Sequence record: PZ445417.1
Reading direction: 5' to 3' (one strand)
Length of the DNA: 44,550 bases
From: a phage
In this document: piece after piece, positions 2,918 to 39,728 of the stretch
How the letters are laid out: each line of letters opens with the position of its first letter
How positions within the stretch are numbered: position 1 is the stretch's first letter
Notes under the pieces: generated by a model
Told to the model about the DNA's origin: nothing
The model's input: only the letters and a program-made list of their open reading frames with translations
The model's database searches: none
Program-made: the position numbers and the translations under genes

Positions 2918-4004
2918 TCAATATATGGCGGACCGCATGATCCGCCGTCACATCTTCACCCAGCGCCTGAGCAATGACCAGGCGCGGAGGGTGTTGGCTA
3001 TGTGGGAGAAGTTCCGGCCCACGTTACTGGGTAAGCTGACCGAGTTACTTGATGGCAAAAAGTCCATGAACAACAAGGCACTTACCACTTTGTTAGCGCA
3101 ACTTGACAAGACCGTTAAAACAGAACTGCGCACCGAGTTTAAGGCGTTGGCTGAAAGCCTTCAGGAGTTCGCCGACACGGAGGCTGATTATCTCACCGAC
3201 ACATTAACGGCAGCGATCCAGCCGGTGGTCGCCGTACCGGCGGTCGAGGTGGTTGGCGTAGTGACCGGTGCGCAGATCGCAGCGACGGCAATGAAAAACC
3301 CGTTCCTGGGTAATACGATGATGCAATGGCCTGACTCACTTTCTGAGTGGACAAGGACGCAGATCGGCAATCAGGTGCGCGCCGGATTCATCCAGGGCAA
3401 GCCAACGACGGAAATTATCGCGGACGTGAGGCGCGCGCTAGGTGGTCGTAGTGCGCAAGCCATCTCAAGCGTTGTTAAGTCCGCAGTCAACCACTATGCG
3501 GCGACCGCCCGCGAACTAATGGTAAAAGCAAATGACGATATTCTCGAAGGTCGCCAATGGTTATCTACATTGGACACGCATACTTCTCCCATGTGCCAGC
3601 TACGCGATCGCCTGTTTTATCCGGTTGATGCTACTCCCGACACCAAAGGAAAGCGCGGCGGGAAAGTGGTGGCGGGATCACAATATGGCGCTGGTCCGGG
3701 CAAGCTACATTATTGCTGCCGTTCGACTGAGACGTGGAAAGTCAAAGGTATGGAAGACTGGCCCAGTGGTAAGCGTCCGGCACTGAAGGCTGACGCGGGT
3801 CGGTTGCTGAGTGAGCAGGCGGACGCGCAGACTGATTTCTTCTCATGGGTGCAGCGCCAGCCGCGCCATATCCTGGAAGAATTATACGGGGTGCAACGCG
3901 CCGACCAGATTATGCGCGGTGTGAAAGTGCCTAAGATGTTCACCGACACCGGCGAACTAATGACTATTGCACAGCTTAAAAACCGGGGGTTGTGGCGTGA
4001 TTAA
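2901..4004 (+). CDS. head morphogenesis protein (Mu gpF / SPP1 gp7-like minor head protein)
   Basis: 367-aa ORF overlapping the portal 3' end. Assigned by position after portal and by overall resemblance recalled from memory, not by search. Confidence 0.55.
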   Translation: MARTINQYMADRMIRRHIFTQRLSNDQARRVLAMWEKFRPTLLGKLTELLDGKKSMNNKALTTLLAQLDKTVKTELRTEFKALAESLQEFADTEADYLTDTLTAAIQPVVAVPAVEVVGVVTGAQIAATAMKNPFLGNTMMQWPDSLSEWTRTQIGNQVRAGFIQGKPTTEIIADVRRALGGRSAQAISSVVKSAVNHYAATARELMVKANDDILEGRQWLSTLDTHTSPMCQLRDRLFYPVDATPDTKGKRGGKVVAGSQYGAGPGKLHYCCRSTETWKVKGMEDWPSGKRPALKADAGRLLSEQADAQTDFFSWVQRQPRHILEELYGVQRADQIMRGVKVPKMFTDTGELMTIAQLKNRGLWRD

Positions 4005-4452: not shown

Positions 4453-5217
4453 TTAGCGAGGAATACCGCAGATCTCGTTTAACGTCTTCACGTCCAGCGC
4501 CACCGCCGTGGACTTCGGCTTGTCAGGGTATGGAATGAACTGTTCCACTTCAGGCCACGCCTTGATCAGCTTCGTATCGGTATTGTGCATATCCAGCACG
4601 CCGGTAACGGTTAGTTTGAACGCGTCATACTTAGCTCGCAAATCGCGGCGGGCCTTGTCGTTACGGGCCAGTCGCTTACAGAAAGCATGATCTGCCGGGT
4701 AATCCACGCGACCGCGCGGAAGATATATCGGCAGCGCTTTCCCGTCCTCGTCCAATTCACACACTGACGCGAGCATCACTTCTTCGTATCCGGGTACAAT
4801 ATCGCCGAGGTCAGGCGCGAGCTTGTTCATGTATTTGATGTTCCAGTATCCGCGATGTGTGCGGTTTTGGTGTCCGTCGCCGCTCAATGACAAGGTGCGA
4901 ACATTACCGCCCGCGTTGATTTCGAATGTGGCGTCATAAACTCTTCCGATACCTTTCGGGTGGTCGGTGTTATTGCGATACGTCGCGAGGTTGGTGTAGA
5001 CGTGGACGCTGTACATGGGCGACTTGGCACCGTCTAGTGCTGCGATGTGTGTGCGTAACTCGGCGAAAGTGCGAATGCCTTTTGGCATACAGTCCAGCGT
5101 AATGGCGTACGCCAGGTCGCGAGAGTCCATCATGATTGATTTGGCTTCGGTAGCGATTTCATGGTCGCGCAGGATGTTAGCCAGAATCTGGTTTTTAATG
5201 TCTTTCGTCAGTCTCAT
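4453..5217 (-). CDS. hypothetical protein (254 aa), minus-strand insert in the head gene block
   Basis: Long ORF. Preferred start is the ATG at 5217 (MRLTKD...) with a GAGGA RBS; the track start at 5262 lacks one. Own upstream promoter-like motifs and a downstream hairpin. No recognisable motif. Confidence 0.6.
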   Translation of the reverse strand: MRLTKDIKNQILANILRDHEIATEAKSIMMDSRDLAYAITLDCMPKGIRTFAELRTHIAALDGAKSPMYSVHVYTNLATYRNNTDHPKGIGRVYDATFEINAGGNVRTLSLSGDGHQNRTHRGYWNIKYMNKLAPDLGDIVPGYEEVMLASVCELDEDGKALPIYLPRGRVDYPADHAFCKRLARNDKARRDLRAKYDAFKLTVTGVLDMHNTDTKLIKAWPEVEQFIPYPDKPKSTAVALDVKTLNEICGIPR

Positions 5218-5239: not shown

Positions 5240-5279
5240 TGCAACCAATATATTGCAACCAATACGCAGATTGCAAGCG
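5240..5279 (-). promoter_or_regulatory. promoter-like region with tandem ATTGGTTGCA motifs
   Basis: On the minus strand: TTGCAA, 18 bp, TATATT, with two ATTGGTTGCA copies, immediately upstream of the RBS of 4453-5217. The leader ATATTGGTTGCACACCAACAA is almost identical to the one at 39388-39410. Confidence 0.45.
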
Positions 5280-10840: not shown

Positions 10841-10842
10841 TG

Positions 10843-11157
10843 AAGCGGGGCAGATCGGGACGTCCCGTTTTGTCCCGCCTTTGCAAAACTGCATACCTAC
10901 TCACTTCCACTGCATAATCTAAAAGCGGGACAAGCGGGACGTCCCGATCTGCCCCGCCCTGTAAATGTGCATACCTATTCATATTTCATGCATAAACCAA
11001 ACGGGACAGAAAGCGGGACAAACATGGGGCGGGACAAAGCGGGACAGCACCCCGTCCCCGCCAGTGCTGCCGCGGGTTTTAGCCGATCGGGACAGGCGGG
11101 ACAAAGCCCAGTCTTTCAGACTAGACGGGGGTCAGTGGCCCCCCTCGTCTGAGACTG
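10843..11157. repeat. non-coding repeat element, copy 1 (inverted repeats, CGGGACA iterons, conserved long hairpin)
   Basis: Inverted arms GCGGGGCAGATCGGGACGTCCCG (10845-10867) and CGGGACGTCCCGATCTGCCCCGC (10935-10957); at least 8 CGGGACA copies; imperfect ~19-bp hairpin at 11109-11157. The distal ~160 bp is about 80% identical to 39047-39204. Confidence 0.7.
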
Positions 11158-11225
11158 CATAAGGTTTGTTTTAAAATCGCTGATACAATATCAATCGGCA
11201 ACTGCATAAAAAAGGGGACTGCATA

Positions 11226-21071: not shown

Positions 21072-21092
21072 AAGCCCCTTTCGGGGCTTATT
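21072..21092. terminator. bidirectional terminator
   Basis: AAGCCCC-tttc-GGGGCTT hairpin with an A-run upstream and T-rich downstream, between convergent genes. Confidence 0.6.
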
Positions 21093-21306
21093 TGCAGGTT
21101 GTGCTTTTGAAGTGGTCAACTGACACATACTGGAAGTTAAACGGGTAGCCAGCCATGAGCATTTTGTGACCGCTAAAATCTGCGACCCCAAACACAGGGA
21201 CGGAATACTCCATGTCGCTATTCAGGTATGTCGCGTCGCAGATTTTAGACGGCATAGTGGAACAACCGGACAAAAGAACCGCACAAATCATAATTAAAGT
21301 TTTCAT
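21088..21306 (-). CDS. small lipoprotein, candidate superinfection-exclusion protein (Cor/Llp-like)
   Basis: 72 aa from the ATG at 21306. Signal peptide MKTLIMICAVLLSGC with lipobox LSGC and a Cys-containing mature part. Minus-strand gene between the J-like and fibre genes with its own promoter-like motif and terminator. Confidence 0.55.
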   Translation of the reverse strand: MKTLIMICAVLLSGCSTMPSKICDATYLNSDMEYSVPVFGVADFSGHKMLMAGYPFNFQYVSVDHFKSTTCK

Positions 21307-24717: not shown

Positions 24718-24747
24718 ACTATAGTGCAACCAACCTATTGGTTGCAA
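24718..24747 (-). promoter_or_regulatory. sigma70-like promoter within a 22-bp palindrome TGCAACCAA-ccta-TTGGTTGCA
   Basis: On the minus strand: TTGCAA, 18 bp, TATAGT. The palindrome spans 24725-24746. Confidence 0.45.
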
Positions 24748-25426: not shown

Positions 25427-25892
25427 GGAGTTCTCCTTCGCTCATTATTTCAATTTGTGCGCTGCCGGTTGGTGGCGCTTCGTCAAATATTATCAATTGC
25501 TGGCACTTGTTATTGCTCGGACCGACTTCACCGGTGACAGCGTGTATAAATCTAATCCGCCAGTCCAGAAGAATTATCAGGTTTGCAGTCCTCCGGGCCA
25601 GCCTCGCCCACTTCGTCGACGTGTCCTGATTCAGTAGCATGACAGTCCGGCGACCGTGCGCTGCGCACTCGACCCACGGCAGCGGATCGGAATATGGCGG
25701 ATTGCACCACTTCCACCCTTTCAACTCTGCCCAGTCCACATCAAGCGCGCTGTGCTCTGCCGTGAAGTAACGCGGTAGCAGATGATTGGCATCGCTTGCC
25801 GCCATATCGTAACGGAATCGGTATTTCCGACGAAGCGGTTTAAATAACGCTGGCGGCGTGCGCCAGCTATCTTTTTGCTCACTCTTCTGCAT
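25407..25892 (-). CDS. DNA N6-adenine methyltransferase (phage Dam-like)
   Basis: 161 aa. N-terminal DSWRTPPALF and the catalytic NPPY motif (WCNPPYS) of amino-methyltransferases. Confidence 0.75.
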   Translation of the reverse strand: MQKSEQKDSWRTPPALFKPLRRKYRFRYDMAASDANHLLPRYFTAEHSALDVDWAELKGWKWCNPPYSDPLPWVECAAHGRRTVMLLNQDTSTKWARLARRTANLIILLDWRIRFIHAVTGEVGPSNNKCQQLIIFDEAPPTGSAQIEIMSEGELLEYLNR

Positions 25893-26343
25893 GGTCGGTG
25901 TCTATCGCATACAGGGCGATTTTATTGCCGGTCTTGAGAATGCGTTGCACGCGCTTTGACTCCACAGCACTAAGCGGGCGCGCGTCCGGGTAGAAGCTGC
26001 CATTTGTAGGGTTGCGCCACGCCATAAGCACCAAATCTTTACGGTCAACCTTAGACTGGCGACCCTTCGGTCGCACGTACTCCTCAGCACGTTTACAATG
26101 TTCACGCAAACCATCGGCAGTGATGCGGTTTAGTGCAACGCTGGTGGTGTATCCGGTGCGCTGCATAATCCCCATCAGTTCGAAAAGCAGTACGAAGCGC
26201 TCCGCTAGCTCCTGGCGCACTTTCTTCTCTCCTTCATATAGCGCCTGGTTGGTGTCCGCCAACGCGTTCGCACGTTCTGCCTGCTCGCGGGCTTCTAGGC
26301 ATTGCGCGGCCCAGTAATTTTTCTCTTCTTGTAAAATTTTCAT
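25879..26343 (-). CDS. hypothetical protein (154 aa)
   Basis: ATG with GGAGA RBS. Predicted coiled-coil N-terminus. Confidence 0.5.
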   Translation of the reverse strand: MKILQEEKNYWAAQCLEAREQAERANALADTNQALYEGEKKVRQELAERFVLLFELMGIMQRTGYTTSVALNRITADGLREHCKRAEEYVRPKGRQSKVDRKDLVLMAWRNPTNGSFYPDARPLSAVESKRVQRILKTGNKIALYAIDTDHAEE

Positions 26344-26390: not shown

Positions 26391-26441
26391 AATATAATGC
26401 AACCAATATGATTATGCAACCAATATGATTATGCAACCAAT
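26391..26441 (-). promoter_or_regulatory. three tandem 17-bp repeats ATTGGTTGCATAATCAT with a promoter-like arrangement
   Basis: Three direct copies at 26398-26441. On the minus strand: TTGCAT (copy 2), 17 bp, TATATT. Confidence 0.5.
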
Positions 26442-36082: not shown

Positions 36083-36115
36083 ATTGGTTGCAGGATAGGT
36101 GTCAACAACTAATTT
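36083..36115 (+). promoter_or_regulatory. rightward early promoter P1 (ATTGGTTGCAG motif)
   Basis: ATTGGTTGCAG (-35 TTGCAG), 16 bp, TAATTT. Confidence 0.45.
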
Positions 36116-36282: not shown

Positions 36283-36612
36283 ATGAATATCGACGACGCA
36301 ATCGAAATGTTAACTAAGACTGTTTGCAGTGAGACAAGCCGGTCCTGGGCATATACCGATGCCGTGGGGGCGGTGTTATTCGAAATCGAACGTCTGCGCC
36401 GTGTCGAAAAAGAATTGCGCGCGAAGCTGGAATTACTCAACGGTACAGCAGCCAGCAAGCTGCAAAAGCACAATGAAGAAATGGAAGAATACAAAAAACA
36501 GGTTATCCGTTTGCGCGATGAGGGAAAGTCATGGGCGATGATTGCCGAGTTAACCGGAATTAATCAGAGCACAGTGCGCTCCTGGGTACGCAATAATAAA
36601 ACTTCTAAGTAA
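36283..36612 (+). CDS. HTH DNA-binding protein (putative regulator or replication accessory protein)
   Basis: 109 aa, GGAGA RBS. C-terminal helix-turn-helix KSWAMIAELTGINQSTVRSWV; coiled-coil middle part. Confidence 0.55.
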   Translation: MNIDDAIEMLTKTVCSETSRSWAYTDAVGAVLFEIERLRRVEKELRAKLELLNGTAASKLQKHNEEMEEYKKQVIRLRDEGKSWAMIAELTGINQSTVRSWVRNNKTSK

Positions 36613-36616
36613 GGCA

Positions 36617-38887
36617 ATGGCAATGAGCTTAATTAAATTCGCGGTAACAAGACCCGCTAAAAAAGGCGAAAAAGCCAGGGCGGAAAACTTCCAGATGACC
36701 ACCGACGAGTTTTTCGAATTTATCAACGATGCTAAAGAAATATCCTCGGTGCATATCAACAAGACGGAAGATAAAGCCGAGTATGCGCGCCGCAAGCGTA
36801 AGGCCGATGGCATTGTGGCTTATACCAGTGATGGGCTGCGCCGCAAGACCAGTGCGGTGGATCGCTCGATCCTGTTCTTCGATATTGACCGTACCGACAC
36901 CCGCACCCTGCGCCGCTGCCGTAAGGCTTTCATCGACGCAGGACTGGAACATGTATTTCACACCACAACCGGCGACCGCCACCCGCTGAAAGGAGGCACG
37001 CGTTGCGCTCGTTTCCTGGTGCTCACCGATAAGCCTGTACCTGCTGAAGACCTGGGCCGCGTCCAGTATGCACTATTACACCAACTGGGCCTGTCAGATG
37101 TGGACTTCGATGATTGTACGAAAGACACAAACCGCCTTATGTACCTGCCTCACCAGCAATCGGTTATTAAGTGTCACTACGGCAAACGTGCCCGCGTCCG
37201 TCGTCTGCTTCGCCTGGCTGATAAGCTGGGAGTGGAAAAAGAGGAAGTACGCCGCGAACTAACCCAGGGCGATGACGGCGTGGCTGACGGTATTCTGGAT
37301 TGGTGCTTCCAGGCGGGATTCGAACCGCTGTCGTCCGGGCGTGGCTATGAAGTGCCGTGCCCTAACGAACACCTGCACAGCGGCGAAGGGTCCACCGCTA
37401 TCATGGTTAAGGATGGAGAGATCCGTTTCAAGTGTATGCACACCGGCAACGAGTGTTGCTCGGAACTGAACAGACACCAGCACCTGGCGCTACGTCTTAT
37501 CGGGATACCGGACCACCTGAACGTCGAACCACACAACATGTCTCGTAAGCAAATCGCCGCCATCCTTCCGGGACTGGACGACGAGGAAGTCGAATCGTGC
37601 TATGAACATATCGTTGATGCGGTCGGTGACGGCGACGAGTACGGCGGATGTACGGACGCAGACCTGGACAACGAGCCGGTTGCACTGTTCAGCAAGCACG
37701 ACCCGATCATCGAGGGGTTGATTAACTTTAAATCGACCTGGTACATGGCTGGCGAGTCGAACATCGGTAAATCTTTCTACGTGCTGGGGCAGATGGGTGC
37801 GATTGCCGCGGGCATTCCGTTTGGCGGTGCGAAGGTCGTCCAGTCTCATTGCTTCTATTTCGACGCGGAAGGTGGCGAAGCCTCTAACCAGCGTAAGGAG
37901 GCATTGCAGATCAAATATGAGCACGACCTGGACAAGCTGCACATTATAGACCTGCAATCACGCGGCTGGGATATCACCAGCAAATCCGGCTTGCGTGAAG
38001 TTATCAGCTTCATCAACCGCACCGCTAACGGCGAACCGGTGGGCCTGGTGGCGTTCGACTCACTCAACCAGACTGTTGCGCTGCGGTCCGCCGATGCTAA
38101 ACCGTTCGACGAGAACAACGCCAGCGATATGGGCGAAGTGGTCAAGGCGCTGAAGGCCATCGCAGAAAATACAGGCGGCAGTGCGGGCGTCATCCACCAC
38201 CCGGCGAAGGGTGCAAACGGCAGTAGATCCCCCCGCGGGTCCGGCGCGCTGCATGGTGCTGTCGATTCCGCGTTCTTCCTGGAGCAACCGGACGACAATC
38301 AGCCGGGCCAATTGAACCTGTATCACGAAAAAGCACGTAACGGCATCAAGCAAGCGCCGCGTGGCTTCGTCCTGCTCAAGTGCAAGGTTAAGGTGGATCT
38401 CCGCAAGTCCGAGGCGTTCGAATCGCACCAGTCCACCAGCACCGGGCCGGACTTCGGCGATGTGGTTGCCGGTTGGGACGTCAAGCCAATTGCCTCCACG
38501 CCACGCGACGAGACTCTTTACCTCGTACCGGTCGCCCTGGCGCCGTTCGCAATCGAACAGGCAAAGGCAGCGGGCAAAGCAGCAGTTAAGGAAGAGAACA
38601 CCGCCGGACCGCGCAACGAAAAAGAGAAAGTGCTTTATGCGGCACTGGAAAAACTGATGGAAGATAACCCGGACCATACCGGATTCAGTAAATCGGCGAT
38701 TGTCCGCCAGGCGGGATTGGCAAAAGGTGGCACATCGACGAAGGCAATCGACGATATGGTCGAGCGCGGCGTACTCGGTTTTTATACAGATCCGCACACT
38801 GGGGCCATCTATGGGTCGTCGAATATCGTCATTAAAACAAGTATACCCATCACGCTTTCGGCGACAGATGACGACCTGAAAGATTAA
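36617..38887 (+). CDS. DNA primase/helicase (prim-pol-like N-terminal domain plus RecA-like ATPase)
   Basis: 756 aa. N-terminal acidic motif LFFDIDR and HVFHTTTG (archaeo-eukaryotic primase-like), a Cys/His cluster, and Walker A GESNIGKS with Walker B-like VAFDSLNQ. Confidence 0.7.
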   Translation: MAMSLIKFAVTRPAKKGEKARAENFQMTTDEFFEFINDAKEISSVHINKTEDKAEYARRKRKADGIVAYTSDGLRRKTSAVDRSILFFDIDRTDTRTLRRCRKAFIDAGLEHVFHTTTGDRHPLKGGTRCARFLVLTDKPVPAEDLGRVQYALLHQLGLSDVDFDDCTKDTNRLMYLPHQQSVIKCHYGKRARVRRLLRLADKLGVEKEEVRRELTQGDDGVADGILDWCFQAGFEPLSSGRGYEVPCPNEHLHSGEGSTAIMVKDGEIRFKCMHTGNECCSELNRHQHLALRLIGIPDHLNVEPHNMSRKQIAAILPGLDDEEVESCYEHIVDAVGDGDEYGGCTDADLDNEPVALFSKHDPIIEGLINFKSTWYMAGESNIGKSFYVLGQMGAIAAGIPFGGAKVVQSHCFYFDAEGGEASNQRKEALQIKYEHDLDKLHIIDLQSRGWDITSKSGLREVISFINRTANGEPVGLVAFDSLNQTVALRSADAKPFDENNASDMGEVVKALKAIAENTGGSAGVIHHPAKGANGSRSPRGSGALHGAVDSAFFLEQPDDNQPGQLNLYHEKARNGIKQAPRGFVLLKCKVKVDLRKSEAFESHQSTSTGPDFGDVVAGWDVKPIASTPRDETLYLVPVALAPFAIEQAKAAGKAAVKEENTAGPRNEKEKVLYAALEKLMEDNPDHTGFSKSAIVRQAGLAKGGTSTKAIDDMVERGVLGFYTDPHTGAIYGSSNIVIKTSIPITLSATDDDLKD

Positions 38888-38962
38888 ATTTTGCGCGCAT
38901 TGGTTGCCGATATGGGAATTCCCATATCGCTAAAAGATTAAATTTTGCGCGCATTGGTTGCC
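38881..38962. repeat. two perfect 28-bp direct repeats flanking a perfect 22-bp palindrome
   Basis: AGATTAAATTTTGCGCGCATTGGTTGCC at 38881-38908 and 38935-38962. Palindrome CGATATGGGAATTCCCATATCG at 38908-38929. Each repeat contains ATTGGTTGCC. Confidence 0.8.
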
Positions 38963-39046
38963 ATTTTGGGCGTTTTTAACTGGTCGTATTGGTTGCCGTG
39001 TAGTGTAAATATAATGAATAGTTATGCAATAAAACTGCATAAAGTA

Positions 39047-39204
39047 AGCGGGACAAAAAGCGGGACAAACAAGGGGCGGGACAAAGCGGGACAGCACCCC
39101 TGTCCCGCCCCGGATGACGCGGCCTGGAGAGGAGCGGGACAGCGGGACAGCACCCCAGTCTTTCAGACTAGACGGGGGTCAACGGCCCCCCTCGTCTGAG
39201 ACTG
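39047..39204. repeat. non-coding repeat element, copy 2 (CGGGACA iterons plus conserved hairpin)
   Basis: Six CGGGACA copies, a GCGGGACAG-cacccc-TGTCCCGCC dyad, and a hairpin at 39156-39204 that differs from copy 1 only in its loop. Confidence 0.7.
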
Positions 39205-39360
39205 AATAAAATCCGGGAATTGCAAAAATACACGGCAGCATGACGCGAAGTGCGGTCGCGGATGAACTAGGCAACCAATGCTAGTTGCATTATGCTGAGT
39301 GAAAAATGCAGTTTGCAGTCACAGCAGATAGCGATCAACTTTTTCATGCGCGTGATTAAT

Positions 39361-39401
39361 ATTGGTTGCATCCGCCCTGGCACCCTGCTATATTGGTTGC
39401 A
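39361..39401 (+). promoter_or_regulatory. sigma70-like promoter with two ATTGGTTGCA copies
   Basis: ATTGGTTGCAT (-35 TTGCAT), 17 bp, TATATT, then a leader GGTTGCACACCAACAAGAGGAC nearly identical to the one upstream of 4453-5217. Confidence 0.5.
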
Positions 39402-39422
39402 CACCAACAAGAGGACTGAACA

Positions 39423-39728
39423 ATGAAAGCACTAATCTGGAACTACTCATTAGCAGTGGCGAAGCTGGACGAAGCGAAGGCACTCAACGGCAACGTAGAT
39501 CAGGCGCTTCAGGTTGCGATACTGGCGCATCAATCCCTTCGCAGCGCGCTCTATGGTATGGGCGCCAGCATGGACGAACTGAGGCCGTTGCGCGCGGCTA
39601 TCAGGGCTTACGCGCTGGCATTTGCCCGTGAGCGCCTGGCGTATCGCTTCGGGATCGGCGAGACGGCAGTGACAAACGTCGCCCGGATTAAAGCCCAGCG
39701 CGAACTATTCGCCCAGCTTGCGAAATAA
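39423..39728 (+). CDS. hypothetical protein (101 aa)
   Basis: ATG with AGAGGA RBS; Ala/Leu-rich, predicted helical. Confidence 0.5.
   Translation: MKALIWNYSLAVAKLDEAKALNGNVDQALQVAILAHQSLRSALYGMGASMDELRPLRAAIRAYALAFARERLAYRFGIGETAVTNVARIKAQRELFAQLAK

What the first reader, a model, noticed from the sequence alone, without database searches (positions are those of the whole stretch)
38881..39422. 535-bp non-coding region after the primase gene with nested repeats: two perfect 28-bp direct repeats around a perfect 22-bp palindrome
The region holds AGATTAAATTTTGCGCGCATTGGTTGCC twice (38881-38908 and 38935-38962) flanking CGATATGGGAATTCCCATATCG, then a third ATTGGTTGCC copy, copy 2 of the iteron/hairpin element, and a promoter-like pair of ATTGGTTGCA motifs. 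The density of symmetric and repeated sites next to the primase gene makes this the best candidate for the replication origin or main late control region. The ORFs predicted here are repeat artefacts.
Basis: partly seen in the sequence, partly recalled or inferred. Interest (0 to 1): 0.6.

Follow-up and report, generated by a model that had tools for sequence, protein, structure and literature searches.

The report
Phage replication-origin-like control region after primase
The repeats are real, but the eye-catching 28-bp repeat plus palindrome is a dispensable 54-bp insertion; the conserved core beside it (repeated protein-binding sites, an AT-rich patch and a long hairpin next to a primase-helicase that carries its own DNA-binding domain) looks like this phage family's so far undescribed replication origin, followed by a regulated promoter.

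Summary
The window is a complete Dhillonvirus (E. coli siphophage) genome.

The headline feature is not the important part. The two 28-bp repeats and the 22-bp palindrome form a 54-bp insertion/deletion polymorphism: present in 8 of 17 related genomes, reduced to one repeat in 8, and absent in 1.

Three other parts are conserved:
- **ATTGGTTGC sites.** This genome-wide motif (16 copies against 0.56 expected) coincides with sigma-70-type -35 elements and overlaps promoters like an operator.
- **A ~200-bp module.** It holds the most AT-rich stretch of the genome, seven GCGGGACA iterons and a long hairpin. It occurs exactly twice per Dhillonvirus genome and keeps its architecture after the primase gene in relatives only 37-49% identical, with changed iterons.
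- **A promoter** for the downstream operon.

The neighbouring protein is a fusion of an AEP primase, a RepA-like helicase and a C-terminal winged helix. The start of its recognition helix changes together with the iteron sequence.

Best reading (about 0.5): a replication origin bound by the primase-helicase, followed by a regulated promoter. The function is inferred, not shown. I found no description of it in the literature searched.

The parts
36283..36612 (+). Small helix-turn-helix protein (109 aa), first gene of the rightward HTH/primase operon; candidate regulator
   Evidence: Pfam HTH_23 and Sigma70_r4_2 matches at residues 65-105; PHROG 9366. The same gene position is occupied by Cro/CI-type HTH_3 proteins in distant relatives.
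36617..38887 (+). Helicase-primase: N-terminal AEP primase, central RepA-like helicase, C-terminal winged helix
38876..38929 (.). 54-bp insertion/deletion unit: one copy of the 28-bp repeat plus the 22-bp palindrome (38908-38929). Dispensable.
   Evidence: Alignment A2: present in 7 of 15 genomes and absent in 8. With L048 (present) and L146 (no repeat copy at all) the tally is 8 / 8 / 1 of 17.
38899..38997 (+). Three ATTGGTTGCC sites (38899-38908, 38953-38962, 38988-38997) upstream of the module; the first lies in the dispensable unit
   Evidence: Equivalent TTGGNNGC sites bracket the module in distant relatives.
39006..39045 (.). AT-rich patch, the most AT-rich 40-nt window of the genome (80% AT). 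It holds TATAAT (39010-39015), the conserved TGAATAGTTATGCA (39015-39028) and the hairpin TTATGCA-N7-TGCATAA (39022-39042).
   Evidence: AT profile; conservation; hairpin loop flipped in some genomes; TGAATAGTTATGCA retained in relatives with 37-45% primase identity.
39048..39149 (.). Iteron array: GCGGGACA at 39048, 39060, 39076, 39086, 39134 and 39142 (+) and at 39101 (-). The inverted copy forms the hairpin 39073-39083 / 39101-39111.
   Evidence: This and the second copy are the strongest 6-mer clusters of the genome.
39156..39204 (.). Long three-segment hairpin (CAGTCT..CAGAC..GACGGGGG / CCCCCCTCGTC..GTCTG..AGACTG). Stems are invariant in the genus; the loop is hypervariable.
   Evidence: A hairpin with the same layout but unrelated sequence occurs in L023, TS33, L024 and L028 (St162 keeps only the left and central hairpins), at -21 to -33 kcal/mol.
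39230..39240 (+). ACACGGCAGCA box, retained downstream of the hairpin in distant relatives
39270..39279 (-). Inverted ATTGGTTGCC site, invariant in the genus
39361..39401 (+). Sigma-70-type promoter for the downstream operon: -35 TTGCAT (39366-39371), 17-nt spacer, -10 TATATT (39389-39394). Two ATTGGTTGCA sites cover the -35 and the -10/+1. The SD sequence GAGGA lies just downstream at 39411-39415 and the ATG at 39423.
   Evidence: Sequence; motif/-10 spacing statistics; the same arrangement in L166 and at 5241/5255.
10842..11225 (.). Second copy of the module, in a 384-bp non-coding gap between the tail-chaperone and tape-measure genes. It has iterons, a long hairpin (11109-11157), AT-rich flanks and an extra long inverted repeat, but no ATTGGTTGC sites.

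Best explanation
The conserved core of the gap (about 39000-39245) is the phage's replication origin, or one of two.

**Proposed mechanism (inferred)**
1. The helicase-primase is made from the gene immediately upstream. It binds the GCGGGACA iterons through its C-terminal winged helix.
2. It assembles its RepA-like helicase on the adjacent AT-rich patch, the easiest place in the genome to melt.
3. Its AEP primase starts DNA synthesis, possibly using the long conserved hairpin as a single-strand initiation signal once the duplex is open. This resembles RSF1010 RepB' at ssiA/ssiB.

**The other elements**
- The second copy of the module, in the tail-gene cluster, would be a second origin or an auxiliary or fork-arresting site, like SPP1 oriR or P4 crr.
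- The ATTGGTTGC sites belong to a separate recognition system. They bracket the origin and overlap the -35 and -10/+1 of the promoter at 39366-39394, so a phage DNA-binding protein probably couples promoter control to this region.
- The 28-bp repeat plus palindrome is a tolerated 54-bp insertion that merely adds one more ATTGGTTGCC site.

**Shown:** the anatomy, its conservation, the protein folds, and the covariation between helix and iteron.
**Inferred:** which protein binds which site, DNA melting, priming, and any origin activity at all.
For: 1. **Classical origin anatomy.** Seven iterons in 102 bp, in direct and inverted orientation, lie directly next to the most AT-rich 40-nt window of the whole genome and directly behind the initiator-type gene.
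2. **Top repeat clusters.** The two modules are the top 6-mer clusters of the genome.
3. **Conserved architecture.** All 16 Dhillonvirus genomes examined have the module. After the primase gene of relatives with 37-49% identity the order AT-rich box, iterons, hairpin, CGGCAGCA-type box and promoter is broadly kept, most completely in L023, L024, L028 and St162, while the iteron sequence changes (GGGATA, CCGACA, GGGGAT, GGGGAGA, GGGGATC, CTCGCAA, TTCCGCACA).
4. **A DNA-binding domain on the neighbouring protein.** The helicase-primase ends in a winged helix. This is its most divergent part: 18-38% identity against 60-70% in the helicase core.
5. **Covariation.** The first residues of the recognition helix sort with iteron type:
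   - TSTK/TNTT with GGGACA
   - xRRP with GGGAT- or CCGACA-type iterons
   - xRY with GGGGA-type iterons
   - NYKK/HYGK with TCGCAA
   - RYSD with CCGCACA
6. **Protein architecture.** An AEP primase with a RepB'-like fold, an AAA_25/RepA-like helicase and a winged helix. This is the functional set of the RSF1010 RepB'/RepA/RepC proteins, and of P4 alpha and pRN1 ORF904, whose origins lie next to or downstream of their genes (PMC4234260).
7. **Precedent for two origins.** SPP1 has two similar origins of direct repeats plus an AT-rich element, one of them interrupting the late structural genes (PMC6316719).
8. **IHF site.** A perfect IHF consensus lies between the two iteron sets in L023 and TS33, one of only two such sites in each sequence searched (the 40-kb TS33 genome and the 10-kb L023 locus). 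This fits function at the DNA level.
9. **Strand test.** The long hairpin folds as well or better on the non-transcribed strand in all 6 lineages, which argues against an element selected within the mRNA.
Against: - There are no functional data of any kind. I found no paper on origins or regulatory motifs in Dhillonvirus or Guernseyvirinae.
- The helix/iteron covariation is confounded by shared descent.
- Other phage proteins could bind the iterons.
- Iteron spacings (12, 16, 10, 8 nt) are irregular.
- Both module copies point the same way as transcription and sit at the ends of gene blocks, which would also suit an RNA-level or termination-related role.
- Whole genomes of TS33 and St162 have only one module, so a second copy is not a general requirement.
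- GC skew gives no signal independent of transcription direction.
Confidence: 0.5

Rival explanations
1. The module works at the RNA or transcription level. It would be a terminator, attenuator, RNase III processing or stabilising site, or a cis-acting antitermination RNA (as with HK022 put or lambda nut). It would be transcribed as part of the rightward mRNAs, with one copy at the start of the long rightward gene block and one in its middle.
For: - Both copies are co-oriented with transcription and lie at boundaries of gene blocks.
- The region folds more stably than shuffled sequence (z = -4.0).
- The long bulged hairpin has the size of an RNase III substrate (my own knowledge of T7 sites).
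- Hairpin stems covary between lineages.
- The annotators of phage CS16 marked a 'terminator' in this gap.
Against: - No hairpin is followed by a U-tract, and the terminator scan finds none in the gap on the + strand.
- Rfam has no match.
- The hairpin is as stable or more stable on the non-transcribed strand in 6 of 6 lineages.
- In some genomes the inverted iteron pair is a zero-loop palindrome (GGGACGTCCC), which is typical of a duplex binding site.
- Iteron sequence changes together with a DNA-binding domain.
- An IHF site lies inside the module in one lineage.
Confidence: 0.2
2. The gap is purely a transcriptional control region. The iterons and the ATTGGTTGC sites would be binding arrays for phage regulators that time expression of the downstream lysis, packaging and structural genes, with no role in replication.
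For: - ATTGGTTGC is genome-wide and almost always intergenic, and its positions are conserved in KarlBarth.
- In 7 of 16 sites the TTGCNN part is followed by a -10-like hexamer at 16-18 nt, against 3.9% background (p about 1e-6).
- Second copies overlap the spacer, -10 or +1. One lies in the spacer of the strong leftward promoter TTGACA-18-TATTAT.
- A small HTH gene heads the operon.
Against: - This explains the ATTGGTTGC sites but not the iteron/hairpin module.
- The second module copy has no ATTGGTTGC site and no convincing promoter.
- In TS33 and St162 the equivalent TTGGCTGC sites are almost confined to the flanks of the primase gene rather than spread over promoters.
- Lineages with unrelated small HTH proteins (HTH_23 against HTH_3) share the TTGGTTGC motif, so the reader of the motif is unknown.
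Confidence: 0.15
3. The duplicated module is a selfish or mobile repeat (MITE-like, spread by gene conversion), or a packaging (pac) signal.
For: - There are two copies per genome, with alternative sequence variants shared between the two loci. This indicates exchange between copies.
- The gap is an insertion hot spot: the 54-bp unit, and an extra ~170-190 bp in several phages, one of which (CS16) has an additional small ORF annotated in the gap.
Against: - There are exactly two copies at fixed positions in all 16 genomes.
- There are no terminal inverted repeats or target duplications around the module.
- The post-primase position is kept across subfamilies with diverged sequence.
- The module is about 4.8 kb from the terminase small-subunit gene, where pac sites normally lie.
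Confidence: 0.05

Closest known systems
IncQ plasmid RSF1010 oriV with RepA, RepB' and RepC
   Different: In the phage the three activities are on one polypeptide, and the iteron reader would be a fused winged helix rather than RepC. There is one long palindromic hairpin rather than two ssi sites on opposite strands. There is no detectable sequence homology apart from a weak RepA hit (E = 0.11). The phage brings its own DNA polymerase I.
Satellite phage P4: alpha protein with ori and crr
   Same: It has a single primase-helicase with a C-terminal winged helix that binds repeats at the origin (PMC4234260). It also has two separated cis sites carrying the same repeats (ori and crr; my own knowledge of P4).
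   Different: P4 alpha has a TOPRIM primase and an SF3 helicase. The phage protein has an AEP primase and a RecA-type (RepA-like) helicase. The resemblance is therefore analogy of architecture, not homology.
Archaeal plasmid pRN1: orf56/orf904 operon and downstream stem-loop origin
   Same: A small DNA-binding regulator gene is followed by a prim-pol/helicase/winged-helix replication protein. The origin, a long stem-loop, lies just downstream of that gene. The authors noted similar stem-loops 3' of such genes in some phages (PMC4234260).
   Different: pRN1 has no iterons and uses an SF3 helicase. In the phage the iterons are prominent and the helicase is RepA-like.
Bacillus phage SPP1 oriL and oriR
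   Same: SPP1 is a 44-kb siphophage with two origins of similar build (direct repeats plus an AT-rich unwinding element), 13 kb apart on the circular map. One lies with the replication genes and one in a non-coding gap that interrupts the late structural genes. The initiator binds both, and oriR is proposed to stall forks and trigger the switch to concatemer synthesis (PMC6316719).
   Different: The SPP1 initiator gp38 is a separate origin-binding protein with a DnaB-type helicase and loader, and oriL lies inside gene 38. Here the modules are 16.4 kb apart on the circular map, and binding is only inferred.

Membership tests
Iteron-type replication origin | Cluster of three or more short direct repeats | tested here: met
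   Seven GCGGGACA in 102 bp (six direct, one inverted), 14 in the genome against 1.9 expected. Together with the second copy it is the top 6-mer cluster of the genome.
Iteron-type replication origin | Adjacent AT-rich DNA unwinding element | tested here: met
   39006-39045 is 80% AT, the maximum of the genome (mean 46%, 99th percentile 67.5%). The second copy is flanked by windows of 70-72% AT.
Iteron-type replication origin | An initiator protein binds the iterons specifically | not testable with these tools
   Indirect evidence only: the neighbouring primase-helicase has a C-terminal winged helix whose recognition helix sorts with iteron type across 9 lineages. Shared descent confounds this.
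Iteron-type replication origin | Replication starts there, or the fragment supports autonomous replication | not testable with these tools
   This needs marker-frequency analysis, 2D gels or a plasmid assay. GC skew is uninformative.
RSF1010 (IncQ) RepABC/oriV system | RepB'-type AEP primase and RepA-type helicase | tested here: met
RSF1010 (IncQ) RepABC/oriV system | Separate RepC iteron-binding protein, and two ssi hairpins on opposite strands | tested here: not met
   No separate RepC-like gene was recognised; a winged helix is fused to the helicase instead. There is one long palindromic hairpin per module, not an ssiA/ssiB pair. It may work like this system but is not a member of the family.
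P4 alpha-type primase-helicase with ori/crr | TOPRIM primase and SF3 helicase homologous to alpha | tested here: not met
   The N-terminal fold is AEP and the helicase is AAA_25/RepA-like. Single-sequence and profile searches of the PDB sequences found no alpha-protein entry.
Rho-independent terminator | GC-rich hairpin followed by a U-tract | tested here: not met
   The scan finds no + strand site in 38888-39422. The hairpins at 39073-39111 and 39156-39204 are followed by GGATGACG and AATAAAAT.
Any curated RNA family (Rfam 15) | Match at or above the gathering score | tested here: not met
   No matches in the whole window.
Sigma-70 promoter with overlapping operators | -35-like and -10-like hexamers 16-18 nt apart, with repeated sites overlapping them | tested here: met
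   TTGCAT, 17 nt, TATATT at 39366-39394, with ATTGGTTGCA over the -35 and over the -10/+1. In 7 of 16 motif sites a -10-like hexamer lies at the right spacing, against 3.9% background. Promoter activity and repression were not tested.

The most novel reading that the evidence does not exclude
A large group of enterobacterial siphophages (Dhillonvirus, Guernseyvirinae and relatives) starts replication with a single all-in-one initiator: an AEP primase, a RepA-like helicase and an iteron-reading winged helix. It would work in an IncQ-like way, by iteron binding, melting of the AT-rich patch and priming on an extruded conserved hairpin. In Dhillonvirus the origin module has been duplicated into the tail-gene cluster, where it would serve as a second origin or as a programmed fork-arrest site that switches replication to concatemer synthesis, as proposed for SPP1 oriR.
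Probability: 0.3. Interest if true: 0.6.

Novelty: new member of a known kind. Interest (0 to 1): 0.42.

Why it matters
Dhillonvirus and Guernseyvirinae phages are among the most commonly isolated coliphages and Salmonella phages, and they are used in therapy and defence-system research. I found nothing published on their origins or regulatory sites.

- **A testable origin.** A defined candidate origin of about 200 bp, a candidate initiator domain and a genome-wide operator/-35 motif would make replication and gene timing in this group directly testable.
- **Engineering.** It would help the design of origin-bearing plasmids, decoy plasmids that titrate the initiator, and safe insertion points. 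The 54-bp unit marks a tolerated insertion site.
- **A natural specificity series.** The set of iteron and recognition-helix pairs across lineages could serve as a natural series for studying winged-helix DNA specificity.

Tried and rejected
- **Rfam.** A scan of the whole window found nothing.
- **Literature.** Searches for the motif sequence and for origins or promoters in Dhillonvirus, Jersey-like phages and Kagunavirus found nothing relevant.
- **GC skew.** Cumulative skew only follows gene orientation.
- **Homologue search with the C-terminal 196 aa alone.** It returned nothing, so I used the full-length protein instead.
- **Sigma-54 promoter.** I considered this for TTGGCTGC...TTGCA in Guernseyvirinae. 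It was rejected because the GG-to-GC spacing is one base short, and in Dhillonvirus it is entirely different.
- **DnaA box.** I considered this for TTATGCA. Only 7 of 9 positions match and the critical last two positions vary, so I do not claim it.
- **CsrA-sponge RNA.** I considered this because most iterons contain GGA. It was rejected because one lineage uses CCGACA and because iterons occur in both orientations.
- **The small HTH protein as reader of TTGGTTGC.** This is left open, because lineages with unrelated HTH families share the motif.
- **Small peptides.** A 26-aa peptide on the reverse strand (39347 downwards) and the 44-aa + strand ORF were examined. Their start codons or residues are not conserved, so I do not claim them.
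Full report
**What the window is.** The finding region is 88-93% identical to more than 130 Escherichia phages of the genus Dhillonvirus; the closest is KarlBarth/Bas17. The window is a whole 44.5-kb genome that starts at the large terminase gene. The gene map was taken from the ORF list and the KarlBarth annotation:
- Structural genes lie on the + strand from 1 to about 23.5 kb.
- A leftward block of replication and modification genes runs from 36.06 kb down to 23.6 kb.
- A divergent promoter region lies at 36.06-36.28 kb.
- A rightward operon holds a 109-aa helix-turn-helix protein (36283-36612) and the 756-aa helicase-primase (36617-38887).
- The 535-bp gap follows (38888-39422).
- After it come small genes, lysis genes and the small terminase gene, which run on into the structural genes.

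**Check of the observation.**
- ATTGGTTGC occurs 16 times in the genome against 0.56 expected and is the commonest 9-mer.
- GCGGGACA occurs 14 times against 1.9 expected, in two clusters.
- The 'copy 2' statement is right: 39043-39206 is 85% identical to 10997-11159.

**The headline feature is a dispensable indel.** I aligned the gap from 15 Dhillonvirus genomes.
- One copy of the 28-bp repeat plus the palindrome form a 54-bp unit. It is present in 7 genomes and cleanly absent in 8.
- With two more contigs the tally is 8 with the unit, 8 with a single repeat copy, and 1 with no copy at all.
- Where present, the palindrome loses symmetry by single changes without compensation (GGGGATTCCC, GGGAATCCCC, CGGTATGGG).
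- The first repeat copy includes the last codons and the stop codon of the primase gene, so the unit looks like a duplication or insertion at the gene's end.
- It therefore cannot be an essential origin or control site. Its only obvious effect is one extra ATTGGTTGCC.

**What is conserved.** The rest of the gap is nearly invariant within the genus. In order:
- two ATTGGTTGCC sites;
- an AT-rich segment containing TATA(A/G)T, TGAATAGTTATGCA and a small hairpin (TTATGCA-N7-TGCATAA);
- four direct GCGGGACA repeats and one inverted copy, which forms an 11-bp hairpin;
- two more GCGGGACA;
- a 49-nt, three-segment hairpin whose stems never vary and whose loop varies freely;
- an ACACGGCAGCA box;
- an inverted ATTGGTTGCC;
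- a promoter-like stretch.

The iteron/hairpin module occurs exactly twice in the two whole genomes I could scan, and at both expected positions in the 15 other contigs examined. The second copy lies in a 384-bp non-coding gap between the tail-chaperone and tape-measure genes. Alternative sequence variants of the module turn up at both loci in different genomes, which indicates exchange between the two copies.

**Distant relatives.** Loci encoding primase-helicases only 37-49% identical to this one include Kagunavirus St162, Hafnia phage TS33 and several metagenomic contigs. Apart from one group (L019/L020 type), where convergent genes and terminators follow the primase gene instead, they have a non-coding gap of roughly 400-650 bp after the gene; 555-645 bp was measured in three of them. 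The order of parts is broadly kept, most completely in L023, L024, L028 and St162:
- TTGGNNGC-type sites (TTGGTTGC, TTGGCTGC, TTGGCCGC or TTGGCAGC, depending on lineage);
- often the same GAATAGTTATGCA box;
- an iteron array with direct and inverted copies;
- a long hairpin;
- a CGGCAGCA-type box;
- a sigma-70 promoter (for example TTGACT-17-TATTAT) and the first small gene.

The iteron sequence differs by lineage: GGGACA, GGGATA, GGGGATC, CCGACA, GGGGAT, GGGGAGA, CTCGCAA or TTCCGCACA. The hairpin keeps its layout with unrelated sequence, at -21 to -33 kcal/mol. Iteron type and TTGGNNGC variant change independently of each other: L288 and L289 share TCGCAA iterons but carry TTGGTTGC and TTGGCCGC. 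Two different readers are therefore implied. TS33 and St162 have a single module, so the duplication appears specific to Dhillonvirus.

**The neighbouring protein.**
- Pfam sees only a RepA-like AAA_25 helicase core.
- This domain is the most divergent part of the protein: 18-38% identity against 60-70% in the helicase core.
- The first residues of its recognition helix sort with iteron type in nine lineages. This is what an iteron reader would show, but shared ancestry could produce the same pattern.

**Other evidence on DNA-level versus RNA-level function.**
- The 40-nt window 39006-39045, immediately 5' of the iterons, is the most AT-rich of the genome (80% AT). The second copy also has top-1% AT windows on both sides.
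- In L023 and TS33 a perfect IHF consensus lies between the two iteron sets. It is one of only two such sites in each sequence searched, the 40-kb TS33 genome and the 10-kb L023 locus.
- No hairpin is followed by a U-tract.
- Rfam finds nothing.
- The long hairpin is as stable or more stable on the non-transcribed strand in all six lineages. A structure selected within the mRNA should show the opposite.
- Against this, both copies are co-oriented with transcription and lie at gene-block boundaries, so an RNA-level role is not excluded.

**The ATTGGTTGC sites.**
- Fifteen of the 16 exact sites are intergenic and point towards the gene downstream. Their positions are conserved in KarlBarth.
- The TTGCNN inside the motif is followed by a -10-like hexamer at 16-18 nt in 7 of 16 cases, against 3.9% for any TTGNNN (p about 1e-6).
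- In the gap this gives TTGCAT (39366-39371), 17 nt, TATATT (39389-39394). The second motif copy lies over the -10 and the predicted start, 20-odd nt before the ATG at 39423.
- The same two-site design precedes the reverse-strand gene at 5217 and the corresponding operon in L166.
- At 36083 the motif lies in the spacer of the strong leftward promoter TTGACA-18-TATTAT.
- Sites over the spacer, -10 and +1 suggest an operator for a repressor. Sites over the -35 suggest that the motif also supplies promoter strength.
- Because the motif occurs in the divergent promoter region upstream of the replication genes, at internal promoter-like sites of the leftward replication operon and at isolated reverse-strand genes (one encodes a Cor-like exclusion protein), it is not a late-specific signal.
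- Its reader is unknown. The small HTH protein is the obvious candidate, but lineages with unrelated HTH families share TTGGTTGC.

**Comparison with known systems.** The anatomy matches iteron origins placed next to their initiator genes. The nearest functional analogues are:
- RSF1010: an AEP primase RepB', the helicase RepA, and iterons plus primase-recognised stem-loops.
- P4 alpha: a primase-helicase with a C-terminal winged helix that binds origin repeats.
- pRN1: a regulator gene followed by a prim-pol/helicase/winged-helix protein, with a stem-loop origin just downstream of that gene.

All three are as summarised in PMC4234260. For the two copies the analogue is SPP1 oriL/oriR, where one origin interrupts the late genes and is proposed to stall forks (PMC6316719). 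Membership in any of these families by homology fails or cannot be tested. The resemblance is one of architecture and probable mechanism.

**Verdict.** The gap is most likely a replication origin plus an operator-controlled promoter (confidence about 0.5). The evidence lies in the conserved iteron, AT-rich and hairpin module and in the winged helix of the primase-helicase, not in the 28-bp repeats and the palindrome, which are a tolerated insertion. I file it as a new, undescribed member of a known kind. Interest is moderate, raised somewhat by the family-wide conservation, the iteron and recognition-helix series, and the second copy among the tail genes.

Noticed in passing
window 38911-38928 (within the palindrome 38908-38929): The 18-nt core ATATGGGAATTCCCATAT has more than 120 exact matches in IMG/VR, in unrelated contexts including giant-virus contigs. 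In many it lies inside genes that look KilA-N-like from the peptide alone (conserved GTWVH motif; no domain search was run), where it encodes DMGIPIS. In E. coli lambdoid prophages it lies about 200 nt upstream of hokD. In the window the same frame reads ILRALVADMGIPISLKD*, which ends like the primase (..DDLKD*). The 54-bp unit might therefore be a gene remnant rather than a designed palindrome.
   Followed up: partly
window 39029-39035: The 7-nt loop of the hairpin TTATGCA-N7-TGCATAA is ATAAAAC in some Dhillonvirus genomes and its exact reverse complement GTTTTAT in others (L006, L013, L015, L017, KarlBarth). This is a small inversion between the hairpin arms and suggests that the hairpin or cruciform forms in vivo.
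   Followed up: partly
window 10842-10960: Upstream of the second module copy lies a long inverted repeat (GCGGGGCAGATCGGGACGTCCCG..GTCCCGC and its complement). It is built from the same GGGAC units and encloses about 45 nt containing two CTGCATA(A/C) motifs.
   Followed up: no
window 10910, 11155, 11202, 11219, 39035: CTGCATAA occurs 8 times against 1.2 expected. Five copies lie in the two module regions, and three of them within about 75 nt upstream of the tape-measure start codon. It could be a promoter-like or protein-binding element.
   Followed up: no
window 26399-26441 (- strand): Three tandem ATTGGTTGCAT sites at 17-nt spacing give TTGCAT-17-TATATT. They are followed at once by a terminator-like hairpin with a T-run (GGGTGTCC..GGACGCCC TTTTT) before the gene 25879-26343. 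A promoter followed by an attenuator-like hairpin is unexplained.
   Followed up: no
window 24725-24746: Two motif copies form an inverted pair (TGCAACCAAcctATTGGTTGCA) between two leftward genes. Unlike the other sites, no good -10 hexamer follows.
   Followed up: no
window 21088-21306 (-) and 4453-5217 (-): Two isolated reverse-strand genes inside the structural block each have their own ATTGGTTGCA promoter. One encodes a Cor-like superinfection-exclusion protein (PHROG 1119) and the other a 254-aa protein of unknown function.
   Followed up: partly
L023 6395-6407 and L164 (TS33) 10969-10981: A perfect IHF consensus (AATCAATAGCTTA / AATCAATAACTTA) lies between the two iteron sets in this lineage only. 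The window's modules have none.
   Followed up: partly
L002 (CS16) 3723-3911; H5, H9, H14, H22 and H28: In several Dhillonviruses the match to this region spans an extra ~170-190 bp, split in two pieces. CS16 has an additional 189-bp ORF annotated directly upstream of the 306-bp gene. The exact insertion point in the others was not located, but the gap appears to be a hot spot for insertions.
   Followed up: no
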